Origin: Escherichia coli
GTDB taxonomy: Bacteria > Pseudomonadota > Gammaproteobacteria > Enterobacterales > Enterobacteriaceae
Direction: 5' to 3' (one strand)
Assembly (NCBI RefSeq): GCF_017348835.2
Contig: NZ_CP072315.1
DNA: 64,000 nucleotides
Positions 1,790-51,778 of this stretch are shown here, piece by piece. Every line of letters starts with the position of its first letter. The stretch's first letter is position 1. The notes below the pieces were generated by a model. The model was not told the origin of the DNA and ran no database searches. It saw nothing but the letters and a program-made list of their open reading frames with translations. Made by a program: the position numbers and the translations under genes.

Positions 1790-1814
1790 AAAACCGGGGT
1801 TTTCACCCCGGTCT
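1790..1814 (-). terminator. Putative intrinsic terminator downstream of terW
   Basis: Hairpin ACCGGGG/CCCCGGT followed by a short T-tract on the minus strand, immediately 3' of the terW stop. Confidence 0.4.
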
Positions 1815-1825
1815 GAGATTTAGCG

Positions 1826-2293: not shown

Positions 2294-2310
2294 CGTAAGA
2301 TTTAGCCTGC

Positions 2311-3519: not shown

Positions 3520-3529
3520 TATGATTTCC

Positions 3530-5565: not shown

Positions 5566-5566
5566 T

Positions 5567-7481: not shown

Positions 7482-7484
7482 GCC

Positions 7485-10604: not shown

Positions 10605-10626
10605 CACAGCAACAAAGGAAACAGGT

Positions 10627-11082
10627 ATGAGCTTTTTCGACAAGGTAAAAGGTGCCATTAACTCTGGCCGGGACGAACTGACCCGCCAGGTTGGTCGTTT
10701 CAAAAACAAAAAATTTATGCACGGCACCGTTGCTGTATGTGCCCGTATTGCCGTATCGAGTGACGGCGTGAGTTCGGAAGAAAAGCAGAAAATGATGGGC
10801 TTTCTTCGCTCTTCAGAAGAGCTGAAGGTCTTCGATACCAATGAGGTGATCGAGTTCTTCAATAAACTGGTTTCAAGCTTCGATTTCGATGTTGAAATCG
10901 GCAAGGGCGAAACCATGAAATACATCCTGGCGCTGAAAGATCAGCCTGAGGCCGCTCAGCTGGCCTTACGTGTTGGTATTGCCGTTGCGAAAAGTGACGG
11001 TAACTTCGATCAGGACGAGAAACTGGCCTCCCGCGAGATCGCTATCGCGTTGGGCTTCGACCCGGCTGAATTTGGCCTCTGA
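10627..11082 (+). CDS. terB: Tellurium resistance protein TerB
   Basis: ATG at 10627 with AAGGAAACAGG ribosome-binding site gives 151 aa (MSFFDKVKG...); the track ORF from 10567 is an upstream extension. Confidence 0.85.
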   Translation: MSFFDKVKGAINSGRDELTRQVGRFKNKKFMHGTVAVCARIAVSSDGVSSEEKQKMMGFLRSSEELKVFDTNEVIEFFNKLVSSFDFDVEIGKGETMKYILALKDQPEAAQLALRVGIAVAKSDGNFDQDEKLASREIAIALGFDPAEFGL

Positions 11083-11104
11083 TCCACATCCCTAAGGGTA
11101 AAAT

Positions 11105-12145
11105 ATGGTTTCCACACACATCGGCTTCCCGACTGAAACGGTCATTGTTTTCATTGCGCTTTCAGTCGGTGCCATCTTTATTGACCTGTTTATGCACCGT
11201 GATGACAAGCCCATTTCCCTGAAGAGTGCGGCGCTCTGGTCCGTATTCTGGGTTGTGGTTGCGATGGCATTTGCCGGTTTCCTCTACATCCACCACGGTG
11301 CTGAGGTTGCCAGCCTGTTTGTAACGGGTTATGCGCTGGAGAAAGTGCTGTCGGTCGACAACCTGTTTGTCATGATGGCCATCTTCTCCTGGTTCGCCGT
11401 TCCTGATCGTTACCGCCACCGTGTTCTCTACTGGGGGATCATTGGTGCCATCGTCTTCAGGGGCATCTTTGTCGCCATCGGTACGAGCCTGCTGAGTCTG
11501 GGGCCGTATGTTGAAGTTGTCTTCGCTATCATCGTCGCCTGGACGGCGGTCATGATGCTTAAAAGCGGTGATGACGATGATGAAATTGAGGATTATTCCC
11601 AGCATCTGGCTTACCGCATGGTTAAACGCTTCTTCCCTATCTGGCCGAAGCTCAGAGGTCATGCTTTCCTGCTTAACCAGAAGGAAGTGGATGCCGAACT
11701 GGCGAAACCAGAAAACAGCGATGTCACCATTGGCCGTGGTAAAAAGGCGGCGCTGTATGCGACCCCTCTGTTCCTGTGTGTGGCCGTGGTTGAACTCTCG
11801 GATGTTATGTTTGCGTTTGACTCGGTACCGGCAATCATTGCCGTCAGTCGTGAACCGCTTATCGTCTATAGTGCCATGATGTTTGCTATCCTGGGCCTGC
11901 GTACTCTGTACTTTGTCCTTGAAGCACTGAAACAGTACCTGGTTCATCTGGAGAAGGCCGTTATCGTGCTGCTGTTCTTCATCGCGGCAAAACTGGGCCT
12001 GAATGCGACCGATCACATTTGGCATCATGGTTACAGCATCGCGGCGACAACCAGCCTGTATGTTGTACTGGGTGTTTTGGCGCTGGGCATTCTCGCAAGC
12101 GTCATATTCCCGGGCAAACCTGAATCTGAGGAAAAGGGGAGCTGA
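11105..12145 (+). CDS. terC: Integral membrane protein TerC
   Basis: 346-aa ORF with multiple hydrophobic helices. Confidence 0.85.
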   Translation: MVSTHIGFPTETVIVFIALSVGAIFIDLFMHRDDKPISLKSAALWSVFWVVVAMAFAGFLYIHHGAEVASLFVTGYALEKVLSVDNLFVMMAIFSWFAVPDRYRHRVLYWGIIGAIVFRGIFVAIGTSLLSLGPYVEVVFAIIVAWTAVMMLKSGDDDDEIEDYSQHLAYRMVKRFFPIWPKLRGHAFLLNQKEVDAELAKPENSDVTIGRGKKAALYATPLFLCVAVVELSDVMFAFDSVPAIIAVSREPLIVYSAMMFAILGLRTLYFVLEALKQYLVHLEKAVIVLLFFIAAKLGLNATDHIWHHGYSIAATTSLYVVLGVLALGILASVIFPGKPESEEKGS

Positions 12146-12193
12146 TCCCCTGAAGTGTTAACCTGAACAATTACTAATCGAAGAGGTTATTTT

Positions 12194-12772
12194 ATGAGTG
12201 TTTCTCTTTCCAAAGGCGGGAACGTCTCCCTGAGTAAAGCAGCTCCGTCAATGAAAAACGTCCTGGTGGGCCTTGGCTGGGATGCGCGTTCAACAGACGG
12301 TCAGGACTTTGACCTGGATGCTTCAGCATTCCTGCTGGCCGCAAATGGCAAAGTGCGCGGCGATTCAGATTTCATCTTCTATAACAACCTGACGTCATCT
12401 GACGGTTCCGTAACCCATACCGGTGATAACCGTACCGGTGAAGGTGATGGTGATGATGAATCGCTGAAAATTAAACTGGACGCCGTCCCGTCTGATGTTG
12501 ACAAGATCATCTTCGTTGTCACTATCCATGATGCTCAGGCTCGTCGCCAGAGCTTTGGTCAGGTATCCGGTGCGTTTATTCGCCTGGTCAATGACGATAA
12601 CCAGACTGAAGTCGCTCGCTACGATCTGACCGAAGATGCGTCCACTGAGACTGCCATGCTGTTCGGCGAGCTGTATCGCCACAATGGTGAGTGGAAATTC
12701 CGCGCAGTGGGCCAGGGTTATGCTGGTGGTCTGGCATCTGTATGTGCTCAGTACGGCATTAACGCGTCCTGA
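12194..12772 (+). CDS. terD: Tellurium resistance protein TerD
   Basis: 192-aa [16 protein letters not shown] motif. Confidence 0.9.
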
Positions 12773-12839
12773 TCGAAAAGTAACTTTTCACCCGGGGCTG
12801 TTAATGCAGCCCTCATTCAACTGTTTGCAGGAGCTAAAA

Positions 12840-13415
12840 ATGGCAGTTTCTCTCGTAAAAGGCGGCAACGTATCTCTGACCAAAGAAGCACCAACCATGA
12901 ATATCGCTATGGTTGGCCTCGGCTGGGATGCCCGTGTAACTGACGGTCAGGCTTTTGACCTGGACGCTTCCGTGTTCGCAGTAGGCGAAGACGGTAAAGT
13001 GCTGTCAGATGCGCATTTCATTTTCTTCAATAACAAAACCAGCCCTGATGGCGCGGTAGAGCACCAGGGCGACAACCGTACCGGTGAAGGCGACGGTGAC
13101 GATGAGCAGGTCAAAATCGATCTGACCAAAGTCTCAGCAGATATCAAAAAACTGGTGTTTGCCGTTACCATCTATGATGCAGAAGCGCGTAAACAAAACT
13201 TCGGCATGGTGAGCAACAGCTTCATGCGCGTTTACAACAACGACAACGGCACGGAAATTGCCCGTTTCGATCTGTCTGAAGATGCCTCAACCGAAACCGC
13301 TATGGTCTTCGGTGAACTGTATCGTCATGGCGCTGAGTGGAAGTTTAAAGCTGTCGGTCAGGGCTTTGCCGGTGGCCTGGCGGCTCTTGCCTCCCAGCAC
13401 GGCGTTAACATCTAA
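12840..13415 (+). CDS. terE: Tellurium resistance protein TerE
   Basis: ATG at 12840 after a GGAG ribosome-binding site gives 191 aa (MAVSLVKGG...), a close paralog of TerD. Confidence 0.85.
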
Positions 13416-13432
13416 AACAACGCTGAATCATA

Positions 13433-13457
13433 CCCCGGCAATGCCGGGGTTTTTTTT
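13433..13457 (+). terminator. Rho-independent terminator after terE
   Basis: Hairpin CCCCGGC-AAT-GCCGGGG followed by eight T residues. Confidence 0.75.
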
Positions 13458-13843
13458 GGTTGCGATCCGCTTTCAGGAGGGAGTAGTAGAAAGGGGACTG
13501 GAAATTTCAGAAAGCAGGTCATGTTAATTCAGACCTGAGCCTTTTAAAGGCAGGAAACGGATTTATCTCTGGTTGCTGGTTAAAGCCGGTATTCCGTGCC
13601 TTTTATCAACAGAATGCCCCTCTGATATATGTTACTTTTGCGGTTTATGAAGGAACGGGATCTGGAACATAAGATACCCGGTCAATCAAAATTCCAGTTC
13701 AACAGGTATAGAAACTTCAGCGTGATGAAATATGGTGTCACACCATATATACGCCTCACCAGAAATCCAGCGTCCTGAACTAAGCCTGGGGAACATATAT
13801 AAGCGCTGCGCTTTAAAAATAATCAAAAATCAGGAGAGTTAAT

Positions 13844-15085
13844 GTGAATCTACAATCCGGACAAAACATACCGCTTCAGCAATCTGCGATCAGGCTGAAT
13901 CTTCAGTACCCTGCCAAATCCGGCTTTAAAGGCGAACCCGATACCTGCCTCTTCCTGCTTAATGCTCAGGGAAAGGTAACCGGCGATTCTGACTTTATCT
14001 TTTATAATAATCTGTCTTCTCCTGAAGGGGCAGTAAAGCTCGTTACCGGTTCTCAGCAGTCCAGCATTGAGATAGCACTGGATCGTGTTCCGGCGAACGT
14101 CAGTAAGATTGCGATCACCGTTGTCATTGATGGTGAAGATACTATCAGTGGGCTCAGTTTATTGAGCATTCAGGCTCCTGGTATCGCTGATTTTCAGGCT
14201 GAGACTCAGGGCCGCAGTGAGAAAGCAATCATCCTGGGTGAAGTATATCGGCACAATGGCGCCTGGAAGCTTCGTGCGCTCGGGCAGGGTTTCAACGGTG
14301 GTCTTGAGCCTCTGGCCATTAGCTTTGGCGTTGATGTCGCACAGCCAGCTCCGCAGCCAGCAAAGCCTGCTCGTATCAGTCTGGAAAAGAAACTTGAAAC
14401 CAGATCTCCGCGCCTCGTAAGCCTCGCTAAAAAAGCCTCGGTCAGTCTCACTAAAAATAAACTGGACACCCTTGAGGCAGCGGTTGCATTTGTACTTGAC
14501 GCATCCGGCTCAATGAGTGGCCAGTTCAGTAAGGGCAACGTTCAGTCTGTGCTGGACCGCATCGCCGTTCTTGCCGCCCAGTTCGACGACGACGGTGAAA
14601 TGGATGTCTGGGGATTTGGAGAGAAGCACAAGAAGTATCCAAACGTCACACTGGACAACCTGGACACATATATTCAGTCCATTCGCGGGTCTGGAAAGCG
14701 TTCAGCCTGGGAGAACCTGCCGGGACTTGGTGGGACAAACAATGAGCCCCCTGTGATGGAAGAAATTGTCGACTACTTTAAGGACTCGAAAATCCCGGTA
14801 TATGTTGTATTTATTACCGATGGCGGGATCAGCAAGACCCGGGCGATTAAAGATGCAATCCGGCGTTCTGCCAACTACCCCATCTTCTGGAAGTTTGTCG
14901 GCCTGGGTGGTTCAAGCTACGGTATCCTCAAAAATCTGGATGACTTTACTGACCGCCGGGTTGATAACACCCACTTCTTTGCCATGGATGATTTCGGTTC
15001 GATCAGCGATGAAAAGTTATATGATAATTTACTGGAAGAATTCAGACCGTGGATCGATGAAACAAAAAGGTTAGGCATCCTGTAA
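13844..15085 (+). CDS. terF: TerF-like protein (TerD domain fused to vWA domain)
   Basis: 413-aa ORF with GTG start after a CAGGAGAG ribosome-binding site; TerD-like N-half and vWA-like C-half (VLDASGSM). Confidence 0.75.
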
Positions 15086-15647
15086 TACGCACAGTTTTCG
15101 CATGGTTAAAGGAGCTCTACAGCAGCTTAATACTGTAGAGCCTTTGTTCACTGGAAATCGTACAGGGAGGAGCATATGGACCGCATCAAGTACCTGAAAT
15201 GGATAGCTGAAGAATCACCAACTGATGATGAAATCGACAACTACGATAGTATCATTAGTCGGGGCGCAGAAAGGGCCGAGAAGGTTCAGTTGTCTTTAAG
15301 ACGTTAATATACGGGAGTTTAAATGTTCGCAGAAATCAAAGATAATTATTCGTTAGGTGGATAAAGAAAGGTTGCCATTACCAGCTTTCGACGAGTCGAA
15401 AATAAAAACCTTATTTATAGTGACAGGGAGTATGAGCTGACGCTTGCCAATGGAACAATAATTAAAAATGTACTTAGAAAAGAAGAGTGGGAACTGTTAG
15501 AAAGCAATTCAATTAAGGTTATATTATAACGAAAATATATTTACAGTTTTGGATAGGTTTCAAACGAGTCCGGACATTTGTACCTGAAGTATCTGACATT
15601 ACAGTTAAGTGACGATTATGCCAGCACGTCTGTTGCTGGCAGCTTAG

Positions 15648-15929
15648 CTATCGGTCTAAAAGCTGATCCATTAATAATTCTTCGTAAAGCCCAGAGGTAT
15701 CGGGCTTTATTACAATATCCGTTATTTCGAAGCGTTCAAGTACAAATTGCAGATATTCCGGAGTAACGTAGTAGGGATCAGGTTCAGCCAGATTAGTATA
15801 GAGTGGGTCTTCTGCTGCATTAATGTCATAATCAATGCACATATGAAACCACTGCAAAGGTGGATCCCAGCCTAACATCACCTGAACAATTCCCTGATTG
15901 CTTTTCACCTCATACCAGTGCTGGCTCAT
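15648..15929 (-). CDS. Hypothetical protein
   Basis: 93-aa ORF, no recognisable motif. Confidence 0.4.
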   Translation of the reverse strand: MSQHWYEVKSNQGIVQVMLGWDPPLQWFHMCIDYDINAAEDPLYTNLAEPDPYYVTPEYLQFVLERFEITDIVIKPDTSGLYEELLMDQLLDR

Positions 15930-15978
15930 ACTTAGTCCTTAAGAAAATTTGTCATCGGAAAATAACACGAAGCCTGCA

Positions 15979-16170
15979 TCATCGAGGCGCATAACCTTCT
16001 TCCCTTAACGCCTGTTGTAATTTATCAACTGCGCTTTTCATTACCCAGGCTTCTTCGTCACTCACAGCACAACCACGTAGATCGCTCCAGCTCAGACGTT
16101 TAACAAATTGAGCAAGGGCCATAGTTTCGTTCTCATCAAGCCGCAAACTCAGTGTCTCAATACCTTCCAC
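15979..16170 (-). CDS. Hypothetical small protein
   Basis: 63-aa ORF. Confidence 0.35.
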   Translation of the reverse strand: MEGIETLSLRLDENETMALAQFVKRLSWSDLRGCAVSDEEAWVMKSAVDKLQQALREEGYAPR

Positions 16171-16261
16171 AATCTAACCTCCCTTATAATGAAAAATGGC
16201 GCTTTACTTCTGACCAGATGCCGAAGCCTTGAATGCAGCCGGAACTGTCGTTGTTTCTACT

Positions 16262-16633
16262 TTACAGAAATGGAATTAAAAAGTGGTGATGCTGGGCACG
16301 TTTCTTTTCCAGCCGGGGTTTAAGCCAGAGCTGAAACTCATTCAACTTCTCAGCAGCCAAAACCGCTTCAACGGGGAAAACTTTATATTTACCCTGTTGC
16401 TGAGGTTCACCCAGCCATCGCCTGATGGCTCCGTCAGTCCATAAACGAGTCTCTTTTAGCCTAGTTACAGTGACCCATTTTCTGGACCATTCATCAAATT
16501 GTCGCTGGCGATCCCGATAACGTTGTTCTTCCTGCTGCCGAAGCCACTCGCGATCAACAGCAAATTTTCGGTATCCAACAAAGAGCCCTTGTACTTTGGC
16601 CATGTCATATTCCGGTTGCTTAGAGTTACTCAT
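16262..16633 (-). CDS. Hypothetical protein (Arg/Gln-rich)
   Basis: 123-aa ORF. Confidence 0.4.
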   Translation of the reverse strand: MSNSKQPEYDMAKVQGLFVGYRKFAVDREWLRQQEEQRYRDRQRQFDEWSRKWVTVTRLKETRLWTDGAIRRWLGEPQQQGKYKVFPVEAVLAAEKLNEFQLWLKPRLEKKRAQHHHFLIPFL

Positions 16634-16936
16634 TCAACCAAAACCTAAACGTCGATACAAACTCTGTTTCATAACCAGGGTTTTATCCTTACCGCGACAG
16701 TAAGTAACAGGGGCTGCATAAACCGGTCATTTAGTCCGTTATGCAAAAATTATTGAGGATCCGGGCTGTTAAACTGTTCTTCCTCTTTCGCTTCCGGTGA
16801 AAAGGGGAGGTGTCACCCTGCGAGCCCGTGTAGTGAAAGGGATTCGTCGTAATACAGGCCAAAGGCTAACATGACCGCAAAGGACGCCCGGGCGACCGGA
16901 TACCTGCCGGGTTGTGCGATGTAAAATCCGGAAGCA

Positions 16937-17368
16937 GTGATAACACAAACAGGCCCCTACAGCGTAAGGATTGTGATGGACGATAAAGAGCAGTTTACGA
17001 ATCTTGTGGCAAAGCATGCCTCCGGACTCACCGAAGAGCAGCTGGCCGGGTACGATGCCTGTTCCCTGGATGGTGAATGCGTCACGCCTTCATACGAGGT
17101 TTTCCGGGGGTATCGTACCCGCCACACACTGGATGAATTTCTGGAGATGGCCATATCGCTGAATGCCATCCACCCGGATGAATATTTAACGGATATGCTG
17201 CTGAAGCCTCATGAGGTGATCGGCGCTCTGGCCGATGAAGGCGACCAGCTGAACAACGCCACCCCGGTTTATTTCTTTCCGGATACCGGCGTCTATGCAG
17301 CGGCCGTTAGTGAAACCCGGGTGCTCGATGCCTGGCTTTGCTGGCCATGCTACCCGGCGAACTGGTAA
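16937..17368 (+). CDS. Hypothetical protein
   Basis: 143-aa ORF. Confidence 0.4.
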   Translation: MITQTGPYSVRIVMDDKEQFTNLVAKHASGLTEEQLAGYDACSLDGECVTPSYEVFRGYRTRHTLDEFLEMAISLNAIHPDEYLTDMLLKPHEVIGALADEGDQLNNATPVYFFPDTGVYAAAVSETRVLDAWLCWPCYPANW

Positions 17369-17439
17369 CGCGGCCGTTGGAATTGCACCGGCCGGATACG
17401 AATTTAACCGATCCCGTGGCGGGAAGGCTATCAGAGTTG

Positions 17440-17685
17440 CATGTCCTCATCCCTCAAGCCCCCTGCCAGGCCCCAACGTGCTGTCAGGCTTCGCCTGATT
17501 CCCGATCTGCGCCGATACTTCAGCCGATAACTTTTTGTTTTCTTTTTATTTTCTTCCCATTTCCTCAAAAATCGCGGGCGGCGTGGACAGGGCACCATTG
17601 CCGCATGTGGGGTCTTAATAAGGGCAGGGTGGTCAGTTTTGCTCGATGCCATGGGTAGGCCCTCCCCTTCATGGGATGAGGACAT
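17440..17685. repeat. Pair of perfect 15-bp inverted repeats flanking a non-coding segment
   Basis: GCATGTCCTCATCCC at 17440-17454 and its reverse complement GGGATGAGGACATGC at 17671-17685. Confidence 0.6.
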
Positions 17686-17840
17686 GCAAGTAAGCTAACT
17701 ATCTGAAATGACGAAGGTTCATTTGGTGAATGTCGCTTCATATTAATGTTGTGTCACTTATGATCGTATGTAGCTGGTTGCAAAGAGGAGCGATGAGACA
17801 ATAAAGTTGTATCGCTAACAAGATTTATGCTGCCACATAG

Positions 17841-17940
17841 TAACAGCCTAAAAGTTGTACGCCCTATTTAACAGCTTTTAGGCTGTTAATTTGATATTAC
17901 AGCTTTTAGGGTGTATGTTTAGGAAACAGCCTGCAAGGTG
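17841..17940 (+). promoter_or_regulatory. Four iterated operator-like motifs upstream of hipB
   Basis: ACAGC(C/T)TNNAAG-like motif at about 17842, 17871, 17899 and 17926, partly palindromic. Confidence 0.45.
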
Positions 17941-17968
17941 TATCAGAGGAAACTACTGAGGCCAGCTT

Positions 17969-18265
17969 ATGATCAATAATGATTACCCGTTAAACACGCT
18001 CAACCAGCTGCGTCCCTTGCTCATTGGTTTTCGCAAGGCGAATGGCCTGACGCAAAAAGACCTGTCCGAAAGGTTAGGCGTCACTCAACAGACATACTCA
18101 CGTCTGGAAGCCAACCCTGCCAGTGCGAGCATTGAACGGCTATTCAAGGTGTTTTCCATCCTGGGCGTAAAAATCAGCTTCTCCTCGGCAACCACCTCTT
18201 CAGAGAGGAAGCAGACGGAAGAAATGCTTAAATCAAACTCACCTGCACGACAGGAGGATTGGTAA
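17969..18265 (+). CDS. hipB: HipB-like HTH (XRE-family) antitoxin
   Basis: 98-aa ORF with HTH segment (LTQKDLSERLGVTQQTYSRLE) directly upstream of the hipA-like gene. Confidence 0.75.
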   Translation: MINNDYPLNTLNQLRPLLIGFRKANGLTQKDLSERLGVTQQTYSRLEANPASASIERLFKVFSILGVKISFSSATTSSERKQTEEMLKSNSPARQEDW

Positions 18266-18269
18266 CGAT

Positions 18270-19595
18270 ATGAGCCGGAAACAGCAACGTCTGGTAATTT
18301 GGATGAACGGCATCAAAGTCGGGTACTGGGAAAAAAGCAAAGGGGTAGACAGCTTAGAATACCTTCCTGAATGGGTTGCTGACGAACAGGGAAGGCCGCT
18401 GTCATTGTCCCTTCCTTTTACTCCCGGGAACCAGGTCTGGCGTGGAAATGTGGTACGTGACTATTTTGATAATTTACTGCCGGACAGCGAAGGCATACGC
18501 AGACGTCTGGCAATGCGTTACAAGGCCGATAGCCTGGAGCCTTTTGATCTGCTGACGGAGCTGGGAAAAGACTGCGTGGGCGCGATACAGCTGCTTCATG
18601 ACGGAGATGAACCCACTGATTTATATTCCGTGAAGTATCACCCGCTTACTGAATCAGAAATTGCGGCAACTTTGCGTAATACCACGGAGACATTGCTACC
18701 GGGCAGGCCAGAAGATAACGACGACTTACGTTTATCTATTGCCGGTGCTCAGGAGAAAACAGCCCTACTGTGGCATGAAGATCGGTGGTGTATGCCGGAG
18801 GGTAATACACCAACGACGCATATATTCAAGCTACCGCTCGGACTTGTGGGGAACATGAAAGCCGACATGAGCTCGTCGGTTGAAAATGAATGGCTCTGCT
18901 CGGTACTTCTCGGCCAGTACGGGCTCCCCGTGGCAAGAACGCAGATTGCTCACTTTGAAGATCAGAAAGCGCTGGTGGTAGAACGTTTTGACCGAAAATG
19001 GTCAGGAGACGGACAATGGATCATTCGTTTACCCCAGGAGGATATGTGTCAGGCCCTGGGCGTTTCGCCATTACGAAAATATCAGGCGGACGGCGGGCCA
19101 GGTATATCGGAAATTATGGAGGTTCTGAGTAATTCAGACCGTGCTGAGCGTGACAAAGCGCAGTTTTTTATGACGCAGATAATTTTCTGGATGATGGCCG
19201 CAACAGATGGCCACGCTAAAAATTTCAGTATTTCTATTGGGCCACAGGGACGTTATCACCTTACACCAAACTATGATGTGTTGTCGGCATGGCCGGTGAT
19301 CGGTCATGGGAACAATCAGATATCCTGGCAGAAGTGCAAACTGGCGATGGCCGTACGTGGCAGTAGCAACTATTACCAGATATATCGAATACAACGACGC
19401 CACTGGATCAGGCATGGTGAGATAACCGGCCTGAGTAAACAGCAGACAGAGGCGATGATAGAGGAAATCATCGCCAGAACCCCGGGTGTCATTGAACGTG
19501 TTAGCGGGCTTCTTCCGGACCAGTTCCCCCAGCAGCTTGCGGAAAGTATTTTTGATGGAATGAGGCAGCAATGCAGGCGCCTGGCTGAGAAATGA
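18270..19595 (+). CDS. hipA: HipA-like Ser/Thr kinase toxin
   Basis: 441-aa ORF, 4 nt after the hipB stop; N-terminal HipA-like coupling region and kinase-like core. Confidence 0.75.
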   Translation: MSRKQQRLVIWMNGIKVGYWEKSKGVDSLEYLPEWVADEQGRPLSLSLPFTPGNQVWRGNVVRDYFDNLLPDSEGIRRRLAMRYKADSLEPFDLLTELGKDCVGAIQLLHDGDEPTDLYSVKYHPLTESEIAATLRNTTETLLPGRPEDNDDLRLSIAGAQEKTALLWHEDRWCMPEGNTPTTHIFKLPLGLVGNMKADMSSSVENEWLCSVLLGQYGLPVARTQIAHFEDQKALVVERFDRKWSGDGQWIIRLPQEDMCQALGVSPLRKYQADGGPGISEIMEVLSNSDRAERDKAQFFMTQIIFWMMAATDGHAKNFSISIGPQGRYHLTPNYDVLSAWPVIGHGNNQISWQKCKLAMAVRGSSNYYQIYRIQRRHWIRHGEITGLSKQQTEAMIEEIIARTPGVIERVSGLLPDQFPQQLAESIFDGMRQQCRRLAEK

Positions 19596-19655
19596 CAGCC
19601 GCAATTTATAGTGTGCATGTTTTCAGAATAGCTGATGTAAGCGTGAGGATTCAGT

Positions 19656-19862
19656 ATGACTGAAGAACAAAAAAGAATAGAGCGGGCTATTGAGTTGGCT
19701 TGTCGTTACGGCGGAACCGATGAAATGCATCATCTGCAATGGGTCGTGGATCAGATGGTAAGAGAACTTGCTGGAGAACGTTATGCACAGATTGTAGCTG
19801 ATGCCACCAGCGGAGAAGATGGGCCTGATACTTACAAATGGAGTGTTGGGATCGCGCCTTAA
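19656..19862 (+). CDS. Hypothetical small protein
   Basis: 68-aa ORF. Confidence 0.35.
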   Translation: MTEEQKRIERAIELACRYGGTDEMHHLQWVVDQMVRELAGERYAQIVADATSGEDGPDTYKWSVGIAP

Positions 19863-19963
19863 CAGCTGTCGGTCTGGGGGTGAAAACGTATTCTTCATTC
19901 AGCGAATTCCCAGGCTTCACATTAAGACTAAAGCGGCGGCCGCAGTAACGTAAGAGAAAATAA

Positions 19964-20374
19964 ATGGCTATTTTAGCAATCATTGCAGTTATCGCCCTGG
20001 GTGGGTACGCCTACGGATTTATTAAAACCCGTGAGCTGAGCGCTTTGCGTAAAGAAATGAAACTATACGTGGATCGCATGGAAGCGGCGGAGCTGGACTT
20101 ACACGCAATCAGAAGTGTAGCGGAGCACCGGTTGCACGGTGCAGGTAAACAGTTTGCCGACCTTTACAGCCGTATCGACGGTGCAACTGTGACGCTGACA
20201 CCCGAAGATCAGCTGTTACTGGCAACGATGCCATTTAATATTCAGGATGTAGAAGACATCGTAAACGAGCGCGGTCCAAAGACAATTAGCGGCCGTCCAT
20301 TCTGGGAAGTTGAGCCAGGCCCGCATGATTATGAATATGGCCCGCAATATCCGTATTTCCCAGACCAGCGCTAG
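19964..20374 (+). CDS. Hypothetical membrane-anchored protein
   Basis: 136-aa ORF with N-terminal hydrophobic helix; ends 12 nt before the HNH gene. Confidence 0.45.
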   Translation: MAILAIIAVIALGGYAYGFIKTRELSALRKEMKLYVDRMEAAELDLHAIRSVAEHRLHGAGKQFADLYSRIDGATVTLTPEDQLLLATMPFNIQDVEDIVNERGPKTISGRPFWEVEPGPHDYEYGPQYPYFPDQR

Positions 20375-34652: not shown

Positions 34653-34690
34653 GGGGAGCCCGCAGAATTCGGAAAAAATCGTACGCTAAG
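34653..34690 (+). repeat. Tn1721-type 38-bp terminal inverted repeat (IRR-like)
   Basis: GGGGAGCCCGCAGAATTCGGAAAAAATCGTACGCTAAG. Confidence 0.85.
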
Positions 34691-37557: not shown

Positions 37558-37680
37558 GCCCCAGCAGCATCTCCAGCTGTGAACGCTGTTCGGCTGACGG
37601 TATCAGTGCCAGTTTGTTCCACAGGCGCAACGTCGCCTTTTCCCTTACCTCTGAAATCAACCGGGTCAGCGTAGTGGCTC
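37558..37680 (-). pseudogene. tnpA: Internal fragment of Tn3 transposase gene
   Basis: Encodes …ISEVREKATLRLWNKLALIPSAEQRSQLEMLLG, an internal TnpA segment not contiguous with the 3' fragment on the other side of IS26; right boundary approximate. Confidence 0.6.
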
Positions 37681-39079: not shown

Positions 39080-39899
39080 GGCACTGTTGCAAAGTTAGCG
39101 ATGAGGCAGCCTTTTGTCTTATTCAAAGGCCTTACATTTCAAAAACTCTGCTTACCAGGCGCATTTCGCCCAGGGGATCACCATAATAAAATGCTGAGGC
39201 CTGGCCTTTGCGTAGTGCACGCATCACCTCAATACCTTTGATGGTGGCGTAAGCCGTCTTCATGGATTTAAATCCCAGCGTGGCGTTGATTATCCGTTTC
39301 AGTTTGCCATGATCGCATTCAATCACGTTGTTCCGGTACTTAATCTGTCGGTGTTCAACGTCAGACGGGCACCGGCCTTCGCGTTTGAGCAGAGCAAGCG
39401 CGCGACCATAGGCGGGCGCTTTATCCGTGTTGATGAATCGTGGGATCTGCCACTTCTTCACGTTGTTGAGGATTTTACCCAGAAACCGGTATGCAGCTTT
39501 GCTGTTACGACGGGAGGAGAGATAAAAATCGACAGTGCGGCCCCGGCTGTCGACGGCCCGGTACAGATACGCCCAGCGGCCATTGACCTTCACGTAGGTT
39601 TCATCCATGTGCCACGGGCAAAGATCGGAAGGGTTACGCCAGTACCAGCGCAGCCGTTTTTCCATTTCAGGCGCATAACGCTGAACCCAGCGGTAAATCG
39701 TGGAGTGATCGACATTCACTCCGCGTTCAGCCAGCATCTCCTGCAGCTCACGGTAACTGATGCCGTATTTGCAGTACCAGCGTACGGCCCACAGAATGAT
39801 GTCACGCTGAAAATGCCGGCCTTTGAATGGGTTCATGTGCAGCTCCATCAGCAAAAGGGGATGATAAGTTTATCACCACCGACTATTTGCAACAGTGCC
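39080..39899 (-). mobile_element. IS26 copy 2 (820 bp)
   Basis: Both 14-bp ends present; abuts a 5'-truncated IS26 in the opposite orientation at 39900. Confidence 0.9.
39132..39836 (-). CDS. tnp26: IS26 transposase Tnp26 (Asn at position 184)
   Basis: 234 aa from [12 protein letters not shown]; contains KRIINATLG. Confidence 0.9.
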   Translation of the reverse strand: MNPFKGRHFQRDIILWAVRWYCKYGISYRELQEMLAERGVNVDHSTIYRWVQRYAPEMEKRLRWYWRNPSDLCPWHMDETYVKVNGRWAYLYRAVDSRGRTVDFYLSSRRNSKAAYRFLGKILNNVKKWQIPRFINTDKAPAYGRALALLKREGRCPSDVEHRQIKYRNNVIECDHGKLKRIINATLGFKSMKTAYATIKGIEVMRALRKGQASAFYYGDPLGEMRLVSRVFEM

Positions 39900-40207
39900 C
39901 AAACGCGAAGGCCGGTGCCCGTCTGACGTTGAACACCGACAGATTAAGTACCGGAACAACGTGATTGAATGCGATCATGGCAAACTGAAACGGATAATCG
40001 GCGCCACGCTGGGATTTAAATCCATGAAGACGGCTTACGCCACCATCAAAGGTATTGAGGTGATGCGTGCACTACGCAAAGGCCAGGCCTCAGCATTTTA
40101 TTATGGTGATCCCCTGGGCGAAATGCGCCTGGTAAGCAGAGTTTTTGAAATGTAAGGCCTTTGAATAAGACAAAAGGCTGCCTCATCGCTAACTTTGCAA
40201 CAGTGCC
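39900..40207 (+). mobile_element. Partial IS26 (3' terminal 308 bp)
   Basis: Encodes the C-terminal about 80 aa of Tnp26 with Gly at position 184 (KRIIGATLG); ends with TTTGCAACAGTGCC. Confidence 0.85.
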
Positions 40208-40416
40208 GGCTGAAGGCCGAGCAAGCCTGACAGGCCCGAAAAGCCCGGCACGGGCGTCGGCGGCGATGACGGCGGCGGCATTATCCAGGGTTGATGATGG
40301 AAGTGGAGGATATCGACAACCTCTCGCGCAACCAAGACATCGCGGTCGGACTGCAAGTGATCTTGAAGCCACGGGCCCGTCCCACCCCGACATGGACCTC
40401 GATGCCCGAACGGACG

Positions 40417-46800: not shown

Positions 46801-47620
46801 GGCACTGTTGCAAATAGTCGGTGGTGATAAACTTATCATCCCCTTTTGCTGATGGAGCTGCACATGAACCCATTCAAAGGCCGGCATTTTCAGCGTGACA
46901 TCATTCTGTGGGCCGTACGCTGGTACTGCAAATACGGCATCAGTTACCGTGAGCTGCAGGAGATGCTGGCTGAACGCGGAGTGAATGTCGATCACTCCAC
47001 GATTTACCGCTGGGTTCAGCGTTATGCGCCTGAAATGGAAAAACGGCTGCGCTGGTACTGGCGTAACCCTTCCGATCTTTGCCCGTGGCACATGGATGAA
47101 ACCTACGTGAAGGTCAATGGCCGCTGGGCGTATCTGTACCGGGCCGTCGACAGCCGGGGCCGCACTGTCGATTTTTATCTCTCCTCCCGTCGTAACAGCA
47201 AAGCTGCATACCGGTTTCTGGGTAAAATCCTCAACAACGTGAAGAAGTGGCAGATCCCACGATTCATCAACACGGATAAAGCGCCCGCCTATGGTCGCGC
47301 GCTTGCTCTGCTCAAACGCGAAGGCCGGTGCCCGTCTGACGTTGAACACCGACAGATTAAGTACCGGAACAACGTGATTGAATGCGATCATGGCAAACTG
47401 AAACGGATAATCAACGCCACGCTGGGATTTAAATCCATGAAGACGGCTTACGCCACCATCAAAGGTATTGAGGTGATGCGTGCACTACGCAAAGGCCAGG
47501 CCTCAGCATTTTATTATGGTGATCCCCTGGGCGAAATGCGCCTGGTAAGCAGAGTTTTTGAAATGTAAGGCCTTTGAATAAGACAAAAGGCTGCCTCATC
47601 GCTAACTTTGCAACAGTGCC
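46801..47620 (+). mobile_element. IS26 copy 3 (820 bp)
   Basis: Both 14-bp ends; no target duplication. Confidence 0.95.
46864..47568 (+). CDS. tnp26: IS26 transposase Tnp26 (Asn at position 184)
   Basis: 234 aa; KRIINATLG. Confidence 0.9.
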   Translation: MNPFKGRHFQRDIILWAVRWYCKYGISYRELQEMLAERGVNVDHSTIYRWVQRYAPEMEKRLRWYWRNPSDLCPWHMDETYVKVNGRWAYLYRAVDSRGRTVDFYLSSRRNSKAAYRFLGKILNNVKKWQIPRFINTDKAPAYGRALALLKREGRCPSDVEHRQIKYRNNVIECDHGKLKRIINATLGFKSMKTAYATIKGIEVMRALRKGQASAFYYGDPLGEMRLVSRVFEM

Positions 47621-48213
47621 TTTGCACACATATGGAATCTGTAAATCATTTTGGACAAACCCGAAAAGAAATCCGTGAGTATGTAGATCTTAATAAGATT
47701 ACTGACCAGGTTAGTATCCCTGAAGATGGTGAAGTCGTTAATCTTTAATTATACATCCCCACAACTTTAATCAGGCAGTTACTCATTATGGTTTTACTGG
47801 TGACTGCCGGCCCTCTTAGCATTCGAAATTTTTTATGTCACCCGATTTAGTTCCGCGCACTTTTTGAGATTTCCGGGGTTTCAGCCATCAGCCGGAAATT
47901 ACAGAGGGCAATGGCTGAAGAAGGTTTTTCCCCGCGATAGCGCAAGTTTCCACAAAAGGGCATCGAATTTTTTGAATGCCCTTTTCTTACCCCATCCCCT
48001 CATAACTTTATGTTTTTATTAACTTCGCGTTTTCGACGCCAGCGTTGGCCAGCTGCTGCCGGCGACGTGGCCACACAACCGATTATTCAAGTTCGCTGAA
48101 TGAGTTTTTACGGGCTGTATGCAACACAAATGCTACGATAATGCCCCCGGACAATACCGGCTCCCAATAATCCGGGGTGGGTTTGTTCTGCCGGTTTAGT
48201 CCGGGGAGCAAGG

Positions 48214-48501
48214 TCACTTTGAGGGGAGATCTTCAGCAAGTAATTTTCCATGCGCGATAAGCCACCTGCGGCGTTTTGCCATCCACTGCTGAAATTCAGA
48301 GGTGCTCTCAACCTTCAGCACATCCTTCCGCTTCCAGGCCATTATGGGGCCAGCTTTTTGTGGTTGGTCGAGAAAGTCAGATATGGCTTTATCAGTCCAG
48401 TACCGCGCTTTCAATCCACTTTTACTTATCCAGTTATCGTGCCATTCAGCGCTTGCTTTAGCGCGTGAATCGGCGGCGTTGTAATAAAGCCTTACCGTCA
48501 T
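48214..48501 (-). CDS. Hypothetical protein
   Basis: 95-aa ORF downstream of the helicase fragment. Confidence 0.35.
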   Translation of the reverse strand: MTVRLYYNAADSRAKASAEWHDNWISKSGLKARYWTDKAISDFLDQPQKAGPIMAWKRKDVLKVESTSEFQQWMAKRRRWLIAHGKLLAEDLPSK

Positions 48502-48510
48502 TACTCGCTC

Positions 48511-48965
48511 CTATAATCTCAAGGCTCTGTCATCGTTATTTTTTTCATGGCCTTTATCTTTAGGCCGGGCATTACCTTTATCCTGCGTCGGCTCGGCTTT
48601 GTCTCGGCCTTTTTCGCGGGTATCATGCTGCTGCTCTTTGGCATAGCGTTTGAGTTGTTCCAGCTCAAGCGCGGCGGTTTTGAACCCTTCCCGGCTGGCC
48701 GCTTTATCCAGCTTCTTCTCATCGTCGGTGTAAATGACGGCTTCGTGTTTAGCGCGGGTGACAGCCACGTAATAAACATCTTTGGCCGTTGTGAGTGATC
48801 GGGTATCCATATTGATAAAAACCTTGTCGCAGGTCAGCCCCTGAGCACTATGAACGGTCGAAGCGTAAGCCAGCCCTAAGTACATAGGTTTGTTGGCATC
48901 AATTTTTACCAGCCGCCCTTTCTCGTTCTCCAGCAGTACCTCACCACTCTGGACGCTTTTTACCT
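48511..48965 (-). pseudogene. 3' fragment of a RecD/TraI-type helicase (relaxase-like) gene, interrupted by Tn1721
   Basis: C-terminal helicase motifs (YASTVHSAQGLTCDKVFI, YVAVTRAKHEAVIYTDD); the reading frame continues up to the inverted repeat at 48972 with no start. Confidence 0.6.
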
Positions 48966-48971
48966 TAAAAC

Positions 48972-49009
48972 GGGGGAACCGCAGAATTCGGAAAAAATCG
49001 TACGCTAAG
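48972..49009 (+). repeat. Tn1721-type 38-bp terminal inverted repeat (IRL-like)
   Basis: GGGGGAACCGCAGAATTCGGAAAAAATCGTACGCTAAG. Confidence 0.85.
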
Positions 49010-49160
49010 CTAACGGTGTTCTCGTGACAGCTCTTTGACTAGGCTTTCTAAGGCCATTCTGATAGCCCTGACTTCCTGAAAAGCCATGGCTAAAATTTGT
49101 GCGGCTAAAAGGGATAACCGATGGTAAAGTAAGTTATCCCTGTCGAGATACTGAAAAGCG

Positions 49161-50738
49161 TTATCCTCGTTTTTCCCAAAACTGTTTTGCCAGTTCGCTC
49201 AGAGCGCTAGTTAACTGAGCGACAGATTTCGCACTTTGCAAATTATTCTGCCCGGTCTGTACATTGGTATCAGCAGCATCGCGTATATTGATAATACTGC
49301 GGTTTATGTCTTCACTTACTGCTCCCTGCTGCTCGACCGCAGTCGCTATTTGCGCGTTCATGTCGGTAATTTCGTTAACGCGTTGGCCAATTCCATCAAG
49401 AGCTGTAGCTGCTTCCTCTGCGTGAGCTACACTCGTGTGCGCTTGCCGACTACTTTGCTCCATGACTGTAACAGCGGATTGCGCTCGCTCTTGTAGAGCG
49501 CTGATCATGCTTTGAATATCCGTTGTCGATTGCTGTGTGCGAGCAGCAAGACTGCGAACCTCATCGGCGACAACAGCAAAACCACGCCCCTGCTCACCAG
49601 CACGCGCGGCCTCAATTGCTGCGTTGAGTGCCAACAAATTCGTTTGCTCGGCGATCCCTCGTATAACGTCAAGAACTTTTGATATCTCGTTACTTTGACC
49701 TTCAAGCTCATGAATAACCTGAGTGGCTTGCCTAATTTCACCTTCAAGGGCAGTGATTGACTGGCTTGTGTGGGCTACCAGACGCTGGCCAGATGCCGTC
49801 TCAGTGTCTGCTCTTCCGGCCGCATCTGCAGCATGCTGTGCATTGCTCGCAACCTCTTGAATGCTTGCCACCATTTGGTTTACTGCCGTTGCTATTTGAT
49901 CTGTCTCTGCCTGCTGCTCAACTGTAAGTACATTGCTTGACTCAATATCCTTTAGTAGGCCTCGGGTGTGTTCGCTAAGCCGATTTGATGCATCACCTAT
50001 GCGACCTACTATGGCGCCTGTTTCAGCTTGCATCATTCGTAAAGCAAACTCTATTTGGCCAAACTCATCGGTGCGCCCAGTGTAGAGGGATTGACTTAAT
50101 GGGTTATTGGAAATATTCCTGGCTCTTTCAACCAGTCTTCCAAGAGGAGAGAGAATAGCCAAAACACTAACAGAGCTTAAGCTTCCTGACATTAAAGTGG
50201 CTAACAATAAGCTGCTTATTGATGTATCAGTAAGCATGCCGGCAGCCATTGCGCTTGATATAATACTACCCCATATGAGCAAGAGTATTTTCACGGAAAA
50301 GCTAGCAGCCAATTTCGGCCTCGCGGCCTTCCCGCTTCTCAATTGAGCATATAATTTTTCCGCAGCCAAAACCTGCTCAGGTTCAGGCTTGGTCCTTACA
50401 GACTGGTATTCAACAATCGAACCATTCTTAGCTATTGGCGTTACATAAGCACTTACCCAATAGTGGTCGCCATTTTTACAGCGATTTTTTACTAGCCCCA
50501 TCCATGAGCGGCCAGATTTTAATGTACTCCACATATGCTCAAATGCAGCAGGCGGCATATCTGGGTGTCTTACGATGTTGTGAGGCTGGCCTAATAGTTC
50601 TTCCTCAGTGAAACCACTGATTTTAATGAAGTCAGGATTAACGTACGTGATATGGCTTTGAGGGGAGGTAGTCGAAAGAATATTGGCATCTTTTGGGAGT
50701 TCTAAGTTTCGACCCGTCACTGGTAAATTCTGGCGCAT
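49161..50738 (-). CDS. Methyl-accepting chemotaxis-like protein (Tn1721 orfI-type) with N-terminal PAS-like region
   Basis: 525 aa from [20 protein letters not shown] signalling-domain character; the 730-aa track ORF is a fusion with antisense IS26 sequence. Confidence 0.8.
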
Positions 50739-50762
50739 AAGAACCTCAAGGGTTGGCTGTTT

Positions 50763-51582
50763 GGCACTGTTGCAAATAGTCGGTGGTGATAAACTTATCA
50801 TCCCCTTTTGCTGATGGAGCTGCACATGAACCCATTCAAAGGCCGGCATTTTCAGCGTGACATCATTCTGTGGGCCGTACGCTGGTACTGCAAATACGGC
50901 ATCAGTTACCGTGAGCTGCAGGAGATGCTGGCTGAACGCGGAGTGAATGTCGATCACTCCACGATTTACCGCTGGGTTCAGCGTTATGCGCCTGAAATGG
51001 AAAAACGGCTGCGCTGGTACTGGCGTAACCCTTCCGATCTTTGCCCGTGGCACATGGATGAAACCTACGTGAAGGTCAATGGCCGCTGGGCGTATCTGTA
51101 CCGGGCCGTCGACAGCCGGGGCCGCACTGTCGATTTTTATCTCTCCTCCCGTCGTAACAGCAAAGCTGCATACCGGTTTCTGGGTAAAATCCTCAACAAC
51201 GTGAAGAAGTGGCAGATCCCGCGATTCATCAACACGGATAAAGCGCCCGCCTATGGTCGCGCGCTTGCTCTGCTCAAACGCGAAGGCCGGTGCCCGTCTG
51301 ACGTTGAACACCGACAGATTAAGTACCGGAACAACGTGATTGAATGCGATCATGGCAAACTGAAACGGATAATCGGCGCCACGCTGGGATTTAAATCCAT
51401 GAAGACGGCTTACGCCACCATCAAAGGTATTGAGGTGATGCGTGCACTACGCAAAGGCCAGGCCTCAGCATTTTATTATGGTGATCCCCTGGGCGAAATG
51501 CGCCTGGTAAGCAGAGTTTTTGAAATGTAAGGCCTTTGAATAAGACAAAAGGCTGCCTCATCGCTAACTTTGCAACAGTGCC
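50763..51582 (+). mobile_element. IS26 copy 4 (820 bp)
   Basis: Both 14-bp ends; lies 24 bp upstream of the mcp start codon. Confidence 0.95.
50826..51530 (+). CDS. tnp26: IS26 transposase Tnp26 (Gly at position 184)
   Basis: 234 aa; KRIIGATLG. Confidence 0.9.
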
Positions 51583-51778
51583 GCGCGACGAGCAGCAGCA
51601 CCAGGAGCAGAAGCACGTCGAGAAAAAGCAACAGCAGATCGAGCAGCGCCCACGGCGGGCCGCTCGCATCGGATAAGTCGAAAAATCCGGCTAAAGTGGC
51701 CGAGCTGCACATCAGGCCGCGCGGTTTTCCTCCCTGATCGCCGGCGCGGTTTCTTCCTCCCTGAACCGCATGCAGACT

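What the first reader, a model, noticed from the sequence alone, without database searches (positions are those of the whole stretch)
47621..48971. Backbone remnant: relaxase-like helicase gene interrupted by the Tn1721 end
An ORF with C-terminal RecD/TraI-type helicase motifs runs without a start codon up to the 38-bp repeat at 48972, so Tn1721 inserted into this gene. A 95-aa ORF and a 38-aa C-terminal peptide (47631-47747) lie between it and IS26. This fragment is the likely original backbone site of the resistance transposon.
Basis: inference. Interest (0 to 1): 0.3.

Follow-up and report, generated by a model that had tools for sequence, protein, structure and literature searches.

The report
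Dead relaxase gene stub beside Tn1721
This is an ordinary piece of genetic debris: the last sixth of a conjugation relaxase gene from a small IncN-type plasmid, cut off by a Tn1721 transposon end and carried between two IS26 copies into the resistance region of a large IncHI2 plasmid.

Summary
Window 48511-48971 (- strand) is an open frame with no usable start. It carries only the C-terminal SF1 helicase motif and stops at the outermost base of an exact 38-bp Tn1721 left inverted repeat (48972-49009).

It equals residues 817-968 of a 968-aa MobF/TraI-type relaxase. That gene is intact in ~34-kb pN-Cit-like (IncN3-type) plasmids and in E. coli H3 plasmid A.

- The 95-aa ORF (48214-48501) is an intact, conserved, unnamed small gene lying just downstream of that relaxase.
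- The 38-aa peptide is the tail of a 258-aa MBL-fold hydrolase gene cut by IS26.

The window's own backbone is IncHI2, with a MOBH relaxase, so the fragment is foreign. It is 100% identical to the other plasmid family. It sits between two directly oriented IS26 copies inside the resistance mosaic.

The same relaxase/Tn1721 junction occurs in 9 public plasmids, on IncHI2, IncFIB and other unchecked backbones. The missing 5' part is not in the window. The reciprocal Tn1721 junction was found in neither PLSDB nor complete E. coli genomes. The window's second Tn1721 repeat (34653) has the wrong orientation and flank and abuts IncHI2 DNA.

Verdict: a non-functional relic, of a kind already known, of low interest.

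The parts
46801..47620 (+). IS26, complete 820 bp, tnpA 46846-47568. It forms the left boundary and cuts the MBL-hydrolase gene.
   Evidence: 14-bp terminal repeats at 46801 and 47620. 240-aa transposase ORF. Its 8-bp flanks differ (CGTAAATC / TTTGCACA), so there is no target duplication.
47621..47748 (+). 3' remnant (2 nt + 41 codons + stop) of a 258-aa MBL-fold metallo-hydrolase gene (WP_001743176.1).
   Evidence: The translation equals residues 218-258 of the intact protein in L001 7352-8128. The intact protein matches Pfam Lactamase_B_2. The gene is intact in pQnrB4_020042 and pFT130-2.
47749..47895 (.). Non-coding DNA downstream of the MBL gene. It belongs to the ester cyclase-HTH-MBL cargo block and ends at the cargo/IncN-type breakpoint 47895|47896.
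   Evidence: Identical to H3 plasmid A but unrelated to the native plasmid L002 left of 47896. Native plasmids match only from query position 276.
47896..48213 (.). Intergenic DNA of the pN-Cit-like plasmid backbone, with a terminator-like hairpin at about 47954-47985 that is T-tailed on both strands.
   Evidence: 100% identical to NZ_CP071267.1 18089 onward. Hairpin -14.4 kcal/mol, z = -4.2 on + and -2.6 on -.
48214..48501 (-). orf95: an intact 95-aa conserved hypothetical gene (WP_033544594.1) lying immediately downstream of the relaxase gene in the source plasmids.
   Evidence: ORF. Annotated in source plasmids and in relic-bearing plasmids. 57 homologous clusters, all unnamed. No hit in Pfam, NCBIfam, PHROGs, PADLOC or PDB.
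48511..48971 (-). Truncated relaxase gene (delta-mobF/traI): 2 nt + codons 817-968 + stop of a 968-aa MobF-family relaxase-helicase. Only the UvrD_C_2 helicase C-terminal motif and the acidic/basic tail remain.
   Evidence: The translation is found at offset 816 of the intact protein. Pfam and NCBIfam hits. No start codon before the internal ATG at 48885. PGAP labels it 'helicase C-terminal domain-containing protein' or 'hypothetical protein' in other records.
48972..49009 (+). Tn1721/Tn1722 38-bp left terminal inverted repeat (IRL); the preceding 5 bp are AAAAC.
   Evidence: Exact match, 0 expected by chance. Sequence read.
49161..50762 (-). Truncated Tn1721 orfI (methyl-accepting chemotaxis-like protein), cut at its 5' end by IS26.
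   Evidence: Pfam MCPsignal, PAS_3 and HAMP. Annotated as a PAS-domain methyl-accepting chemotaxis protein in matching plasmids. The 730-aa ORF is an artefact that reads through into IS26.
50763..51582 (+). IS26, complete, in the same orientation as the copy at 46801. It forms the right boundary of the 3,142-bp relic segment.
   Evidence: Terminal repeats. tnpA 50808-51530 on +. Flanks GGCTGTTT / GCGCGACG.

Best explanation
Window 47621-48971 is non-functional debris from another plasmid, fixed inside the IS26-rich resistance mosaic of an IncHI2 plasmid.

SHOWN:
- 48511-48971 (-) is the last 152 codons of the 968-aa MobF-family relaxase-helicase. This gene is the TraI/TrwC equivalent of ~34-kb conjugative plasmids with a pN-Cit/pKM101-type (IncN3-like) transfer backbone.
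- 48214-48501 (-) is the small unnamed gene that follows the relaxase in that lineage.
- 47896-48213 is their intergenic DNA.
- 47621-47895 is the tail of an unrelated cargo block (ester cyclase, HTH regulator, MBL hydrolase).
- That cargo block is already joined to the same backbone point in E. coli H3 plasmid A, where the relaxase gene is still whole.

INFERRED:
1. A Tn1721/Tn1722 copy transposed into codon 816 of the relaxase gene, in a mosaic that already had the cargo-orf95-relaxase arrangement. This destroyed the gene.
2. IS26 then cut the transposon inside its chemotaxis-like orfI. IS26-mediated recombination, inversion or cointegration moved the block into IncHI2, IncFIB and other plasmids. 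The relaxase 5' part and the rest of the transposon were left behind.
3. In this lineage one more IS26 event trimmed the MBL gene to 41 codons.

The stub cannot act as a relaxase or helicase. It lacks the TrwC nickase domain, the Walker A/B ATPase core, a start codon and a ribosome-binding site. It persists only because it lies between IS26 copies next to selected resistance genes.
For: - Identity: 1351/1351 bp match H3 plasmid A, and 1076/1076 bp (47896-48971) match NZ_CP071267.1.
- Intact gene and domains. Residue mapping.
- Source lineage: the native plasmids carry stbABC, EexN, KikA, a PLD nuclease, a VirB-type T4SS and a MOBF relaxase. They are 90% covered by pN-Cit at 90-98% identity. 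pN-Cit is the first described IncN3 plasmid, and the related IncN3 plasmid pKP2648-34 carries a MOBF relaxase (PMC9430514).
- Resident backbone is IncHI2.
- Exact Tn1721 IRL at the break.
- The identical 300-bp junction is present in exactly 9 PLSDB records, on IncHI2, IncFIB and other unchecked backbones.
- The 5' 2.4 kb of the gene is absent from the window. None of the 9 junction-bearing records is among the 60 best of the 95 records that hold it.
- The cargo/backbone junction is shared with a record whose relaxase is intact.
- A 9.2-kb floR-ISVsa3-tet(A) block next to the relic is also shared with H3 plasmid A, in a different arrangement.
- No sigma-70-like promoter was found on the - strand. 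The 20 bases before ATG 48885 (AAATTGATGCCAACAAACCT) contain no Shine-Dalgarno-like sequence (read).
Against: - The transposition event itself is not proven. The reciprocal junction (IRR followed by AAAAC and the relaxase 5' part) was not found, so the 5-bp target duplication cannot be shown.
- The order of the IS26 events is not uniquely recoverable. Both IS26 copies flanking the longer version in pQnrB4_020042 carry the same ~20-bp flank on one side, which a single simple inversion does not explain.
- Expression of the 124-aa internal ORF, or of orf95, was not tested.
- H3 plasmid A is taken as ancestor-like on parsimony only.
Confidence: 0.9

Rival explanations
1. One reading: the fragment is what is left of this plasmid's own backbone relaxase gene, at the site where Tn1721 first entered the plasmid. 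The 5' half would lie elsewhere on the plasmid beside the other Tn1721 end.
For: The gene does end exactly at a Tn1721 terminal repeat, and a second Tn1721 repeat exists in the window.
Against: The backbone is IncHI2 with a MOBH relaxase. The relic is 100% identical to a different, MOBF plasmid family. The same junction occurs on IncFIB and on other plasmids. The second repeat is co-oriented, has flank TTAAA and abuts IncHI2 DNA. No further piece of the gene lies in the window, and none of the junction-bearing plasmids is among the top holders of the 5' part.
Confidence: 0.03
2. The junction was made by illegitimate or homologous recombination or by an IS26-mediated deletion, not by transposition of Tn1721 into the relaxase gene. 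It ends at the repeat only by coincidence.
For: No 5-bp duplication can be shown. The region is full of IS26-driven rearrangements without target duplications.
Against: The break coincides, within the 2-bp GG ambiguity, with the outermost base of a perfect 38-bp repeat. That is the signature of Tn3-family transposition. No IS26 end or other repeat lies at that junction.
Confidence: 0.04
3. The remnant is kept because something in it still works. Candidates are the intact orf95, or the 124-aa helicase C-terminal ORF that RefSeq annotates as a protein, acting in trans on conjugation or plasmid maintenance.
For: orf95 is intact, and 29 further positions are nearly invariant across 39 homologues besides 13 invariant ones. 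It is retained in all 9 junction-bearing records, which match the whole fragment at 99.9-100% identity. Homologues exist in 1,217 plasmids, including a 36%-identical paralogue in the IncHI2 backbone. PGAP annotates the 124-aa ORF.
Against: Retention is fully explained by hitch-hiking between IS26 copies over a short time, since the sequences are 99.9-100% identical. Other variants cut through orf95 at 48486 (H19-H23). The 124-aa ORF lacks the ATPase core and a ribosome-binding site. No functional annotation or structural match was found for orf95.
Confidence: 0.05

Closest known systems
MobF-family relaxase-helicase (TraI of IncN pKM101/pN-Cit-type plasmids; TrwC of R388)
   Same: The fragment is 100% identical to the C-terminal 152 residues of the 968-aa MobF relaxase of the rep_cluster_1760 / pN-Cit-like plasmids. 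The intact homologue has the TrwC, AAA_30 and UvrD_C_2 architecture.
   Different: Only 16% of the gene is present. There is no nickase domain, no ATPase core and no start codon, so it is a pseudogene fragment and not a member protein.
Tn1721/Tn1722 (Tn3-family tetracycline-resistance transposon with the chemotaxis-like orfI at its left end)
   Same: It has an exact 38-bp IRL followed by the PAS/HAMP/MCP-signal ORF. Other Tn1721 pieces lie in the window: an IRR-type repeat at 34653, and tet(A)/tetR near 57.5-59.9 kb.
   Different: The element is fragmented. orfI is cut by IS26 at 50762. No res, tnpR or tnpA is contiguous with this end, and no partner repeat or 5-bp duplication exists.
IS26-bounded segment (pseudo-compound transposon / translocatable unit)
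   Same: Two complete IS26 copies in direct orientation bracket the 3,142-bp segment.
   Different: It carries no intact resistance gene, and there is no 8-bp target duplication. In related plasmids the flanking IS26 copies are inverted and the segment is longer.
E. coli H3 plasmid A (NZ_CP010168.1) resistance mosaic
   Same: It shares the cargo/orf95 junction, the full 1351 bp at 100% identity, and the adjacent 9.2-kb floR-ISVsa3-tet(A) block.
   Different: There the relaxase gene is intact and followed by the coupling-protein gene, an unnamed gene in the traK position and stbA/stbB'. The replicon is IncX1.

Membership tests
MobF/TrwC-type conjugative relaxase-helicase | N-terminal TrwC relaxase (HUH nickase) domain | tested here: not met
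   Pfam TrwC covers residues 15-287 of the intact homologue. The window holds only residues 817-968, and no other part of the gene is in the window.
MobF/TrwC-type conjugative relaxase-helicase | SF1 helicase ATPase core (Walker A/B; AAA_30) | tested here: not met
   AAA_30 covers residues 476-649 of the intact protein and is absent from the fragment. Only UvrD_C_2 (fragment residues 33-80) is present.
MobF/TrwC-type conjugative relaxase-helicase | Sequence identity to a bona fide family member over the retained part | tested here: met
   152/152 residues are identical to WP_052989320.1, which matches NCBIfam NF041492 MobF at 282.7 bits (cut-off 100).
Tn1721/Tn1722 (Tn3 family) | 38-bp terminal inverted repeat | tested here: met
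   Exact IRL at 48972-49009. An IRR-type copy with 3 differences lies at 34653-34690.
Tn1721/Tn1722 (Tn3 family) | 5-bp target-site duplication flanking both ends | tested here: not met
   The flank here is AAAAC. The only other repeat in the window is co-oriented with flank TTAAA. The reciprocal junction is absent from PLSDB and from complete E. coli genomes.
Tn1721/Tn1722 (Tn3 family) | Contiguous orfI-res-tnpR-tnpA module | tested here: not met
   orfI is truncated by IS26 at 50762/50763 and followed by unrelated DNA.
IncHI2 plasmid backbone (as origin of the fragment) | Fragment collinear with, or homologous to, IncHI2 backbone genes | tested here: not met
   Full-length matches that retain an intact relaxase gene are H3 plasmid A and the ~34-kb MOBF plasmids. 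On IncHI2 records the fragment occurs only inside IS26-bounded resistance regions. The IncHI2 relaxase type is MOBH.
IS26 translocatable unit / pseudo-compound transposon | Two IS26 in direct orientation bounding the segment | tested here: met
   tnpA of both copies is on the + strand. Complete ends are present.
IS26 translocatable unit / pseudo-compound transposon | 8-bp target duplication around the whole unit | tested here: not met
   The outer flanks CGTAAATC and GCGCGACG differ.
Conjugative origin of transfer (oriT) of the source plasmid | nic site and relaxosome binding repeats within the fragment | not tested
   No oriT model was available. In pKM101/R388-type plasmids oriT lies upstream of traK/trwA, next to stbA (my own knowledge). 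That is the opposite end of the operon from the retained 3' end (gene order).

The most novel reading that the evidence does not exclude
orf95 is the intact 95-aa gene kept in every copy of this relic. It belongs to a widespread, unnamed family of small plasmid proteins, with a distant paralogue in the IncHI2 backbone at 16262-16633. It could be a trans-acting modulator of conjugation or plasmid interference. In that case the 'debris' would give the IncHI2 plasmid a function taken from an IncN-type competitor.
Probability: 0.04. Interest if true: 0.35.

Novelty: already known. Interest (0 to 1): 0.07.

Why it matters
It matters little biologically. Truncated backbone genes next to transposon ends, shuffled by IS26, are routine in multiresistance plasmids.

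Practical value:
- The delta-relaxase/IRL junction (AAAAC|GGGGGAACC...) is a specific lineage marker. It links the floR-tet(A)-ISVsa3 module of these IncHI2 plasmids to an H3-plasmid-A-like mosaic, and before that to a pN-Cit-like conjugative plasmid.
- Annotation pipelines call the stub a 'helicase C-terminal domain-containing protein'. Relaxase- or replicon-typing tools could be misled by such relics.

Tried and rejected
1. I first filed the source as IncX1, with the relaxase as TaxC, because MOB-suite types H3 plasmid A as IncX1. I rejected this after reading the whole native plasmids. Their backbone is pKM101/pN-Cit-like (stbABC, EexN, KikA, PLD nuclease) and the relaxase is MOBF. H3 plasmid A has an IncX1 replicon but only a ~6.7-kb captured piece of that transfer region.
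2. I searched for the reciprocal junction with a chimeric 700-nt query made of the Tn1721 right end, AAAAC and the relaxase 5' DNA. There was no contiguous hit in PLSDB or in complete E. coli genomes. The two full-coverage hits were two-piece matches from a different insertion site.
3. BLAST suggested a shared AAAAC flank at the Tn1721 IRL of H3 plasmid A. The sequence shows GAAAA|GGGGG and a gapped extension, so there is no link.
4. A single IS26 intramolecular inversion looked attractive. Both IS26 copies in pQnrB4_020042 carry the same ~20-bp flank, so the path is more complex and I left it unresolved.
5. A junction search for IS26|orfI was uninformative, because the top hits were two-piece matches.
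6. orf95 function: Pfam, NCBIfam, PHROGs, PADLOC, PDB sequence search, an AlphaFold model (pLDDT 63.5) and Foldseek against PDB all gave nothing.
7. An Rfam scan of 47000-49500 gave only a sub-threshold isrL hit inside Tn1721, taken as chance.
8. Literature searches found no paper describing this particular junction.

Full report
**Observation**

The region was read directly.
- A complete IS26 ends at 47620 (terminal repeats; 240-aa transposase ORF).
- The exact 38-bp Tn1721 left repeat GGGGGAACCGCAGAATTCGGAAAAAATCGTACGCTAAG lies at 48972-49009. No match is expected by chance.
- Between them, on the - strand, a frame ending at the stop 48511-48513 is open for 152 codons up to the repeat. It continues 22 codons into the repeat without any ATG/GTG/TTG. 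The first possible start is an internal ATG at 48885.
- The fragment matches Pfam UvrD_C_2 (E 3.9e-10). It also matches the C-terminal ends of the NCBIfam TraA, TraI and RecD models.
- The 95-aa ORF (48214-48501, -) and the short + strand C-terminal peptide are also present.

**What the pieces are**

A megablast of 47621-48971 against 72,556 plasmids found 221 records. Ten contain all 1351 bp at 99.9-100% identity.

In E. coli H3 plasmid A (NZ_CP010168.1) the match runs on without a break into a complete 2,907-bp gene annotated as a MobF family relaxase. The same is true of the ~34-kb plasmids NZ_CP071267.1, PCN061p4 and p203740_35, from window position 47896 onward.
- The intact 968-aa protein has a TrwC relaxase domain (residues 15-287), AAA_30 (476-649) and UvrD_C_2 (849-896).
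- It passes the NCBIfam MobF model.
- The window's fragment is residues 817-968, plus two bases of codon 816.
- The + strand peptide is the last 41 residues of a 258-aa MBL-fold hydrolase. That gene is complete in H3 plasmid A, pQnrB4_020042 and pFT130-2.
- Position 47895|47896 is a breakpoint. To its left H3 plasmid A and the window agree, but the native ~34-kb plasmid is unrelated. To its right all three agree.

**Which plasmid family the relic comes from**

I first took it for IncX1, because MOB-suite types H3 plasmid A that way. Reading the complete records corrected this.

The ~34-kb plasmids with the intact gene carry stbABC, an EexN lipoprotein, TrbM/KikA, a PLD-family nuclease, a VirB-type T4SS and a MOBF relaxase. 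That is a pKM101/IncN-type backbone.
- NZ_CP071267.1 is 90% covered by pN-Cit at 90-98% identity. It differs mainly in the replication gene and in having orf95, which pN-Cit lacks.
- pN-Cit is typed IncN. PMC9430514 describes it as the first IncN3 plasmid and reports a MOBF relaxase for the related IncN3 plasmid pKP2648-34.
- H3 plasmid A has an IncX1 replicon (pir-type initiators, ddp, parFG). It holds only a ~6.7-kb piece of that transfer region: orf95, relaxase, coupling protein, a small gene, stbA and a truncated stbB. This piece is bounded by the cargo breakpoint and by IS26.
- The IncX relaxase TaxC (PMC3402527) is a different protein. That it is of the MOBP type is from my own knowledge.

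**The resident plasmid**

Window 1-20000 is IncHI2 backbone with the ter genes. It is 100% identical to many 215-257-kb plasmids.

The window is collinear at 99.99% with Salmonella plasmid p2016062-242 (IncHI2A, MOBH relaxase). The exception is an ~8.8-kb oqxAB-blaTEM segment between IS26 copies that the window lacks.

The relic therefore does not belong to the backbone of the plasmid it sits in.

This fails on several counts.
- The only other repeat in the window (34653-34690, IRR type) is in the same orientation.
- It is flanked by TTAAA, not AAAAC or GTTTT.
- It abuts IncHI2 backbone DNA.
- No other part of the relaxase gene, or of the native plasmid, is in the window.
- A chimeric query for the reciprocal junction found no contiguous match in PLSDB or in 5,426 complete E. 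coli genomes.
- Only 95 PLSDB records hold the 5' 2.4 kb of the gene. None of the junction-bearing plasmids is among the best 60.

**Distribution of the relic**

A 300-bp probe across the relaxase/IRL junction matched in full, at 100%, in exactly 9 PLSDB records. They come from Salmonella, E. coli, Enterobacter and Raoultella.
- The three I opened are IncHI2A p2016062-242, IncHI2A/IncN pQnrB4_020042 and the 63-kb IncFIB plasmid pFT130-2.
- In eight of the nine the MBL gene is annotated at the match; in the two of those I opened (pQnrB4_020042 and pFT130-2) it is intact and preceded by the HTH and ester-cyclase genes and an IS26.
- Only p2016062-242 shares the window's IS26 cut at 47620|47621.
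- In pFT130-2 the Tn1721 orfI is cut by IS26 at a different point.

The relic is thus a passenger that has moved between replicons, with successive IS26 trimming.

**History (inference)**

The cargo/orf95 junction is shared by a record in which the relaxase is intact (H3 plasmid A). Parsimony therefore places the Tn1721 insertion in a mosaic that already had the cargo-orf95-relaxase arrangement, not in a native pN-Cit-like plasmid.

The window and H3 plasmid A also share the adjacent 9.2-kb IS26-recombinase-ISVsa3-floR-tet(A) block, on the other side and inverted. This points to IS26-mediated inversion or recombination.

A single intramolecular inversion does not fit all flanks, because both IS26 copies in pQnrB4_020042 carry the same ~20-bp flank. 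I leave the exact path open. None of the four complete IS26 copies in the window has an 8-bp target duplication.

**Function**

The stub lacks the nickase domain, the ATPase core, a start codon and a Shine-Dalgarno sequence.
- The 20 bases before ATG 48885 are AAATTGATGCCAACAAACCT (read).
- The consensus scan found no promoter on its strand.
- RefSeq annotations of it as a 124-aa 'helicase C-terminal domain-containing protein' or a 99-aa hypothetical protein are artefacts of automatic ORF calling.
- By analogy with pKM101 and R388, oriT lies at the other end of the operon, next to stbA (my own knowledge; gene order). The relic is therefore not expected to confer mobilisability. This was not tested.

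orf95 is intact and belongs to a conserved family: 57 clusters, with 13 invariant columns among 39 aligned sequences.
- It has homologues in 1,217 plasmids.
- It has a 36%-identical paralogue in the IncHI2 backbone at 16262-16633.
- No library, solved structure or fold search gave it a function.

**Verdict**

The feature is a dead fragment of a foreign MOBF relaxase gene, truncated at a Tn1721 end and trapped between IS26 copies. This kind of debris is routine in multiresistance regions, and this particular junction is already present in public records. Interest is low.

Noticed in passing
window 16262-16633 (-): The IncHI2 backbone encodes a 123-aa protein 36% identical over 66 aa to orf95 (BLASTP E 7e-12), sharing the motif W..W(I/V)..LK.R.WTD.AI..L..PQ..G. 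orf95-like small proteins occur in 1,217 PLSDB plasmids, and every one listed is annotated as hypothetical or left unannotated.
   Followed up: partly
window 34653-34690: A second Tn1721 repeat (IRR type, 3 differences from the IRL) marks the boundary between IncHI2 backbone and the resistance region. It is flanked by TTAAA and followed by Tn1721 right-end DNA up to IS26 at 36739. It is not the partner of the repeat at 48972.
   Followed up: partly
window 46801-51582: Two directly oriented IS26 copies enclose 3,142 bp containing only gene fragments (delta-MBL, delta-relaxase, delta-orfI) plus orf95. This is a potential translocatable unit with no resistance cargo.
   Followed up: partly
window 39896-40208: A partial IS26 copy (~313 bp with one terminal repeat at 40194-40207) directly abuts the complete IS26 at 39080-39899. 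At this point the related plasmid p2016062-242 carries an extra ~8.8-kb oqxAB-blaTEM-1 segment that the window lacks.
   Followed up: partly
window 37558-37576 and 51583-51604: Two IS26 copies carry the same ~20-bp flanking sequence on one side. The same flank lies beside the IS26 of E. coli H3 plasmid A. It is a trace of repeated IS26-mediated events that I could not order.
   Followed up: no
window 49161-51353 (-): The 730-aa ORF in the mechanical ORF list is a chimera. It reads from the antisense strand of IS26 into the truncated Tn1721 chemotaxis-like gene and is not a real gene.
   Followed up: yes
window 47954-47985: A strong hairpin (-14.4 kcal/mol, z = -4.2) has A/T runs on both sides, between orf95 and the upstream convergent gene of the source plasmid. 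It looks like a bidirectional intrinsic terminator, and the simple terminator scan missed it.
   Followed up: partly
L012 (pN-Cit, NC_020122.1) 12145-12421 versus L007 18134-18703: The prototype IncN3 plasmid pN-Cit lacks orf95 downstream of its relaxase gene. The rep_cluster_1760 relatives have it, along with a different replication gene. orf95 is therefore an accessory insertion within this plasmid family.
   Followed up: partly
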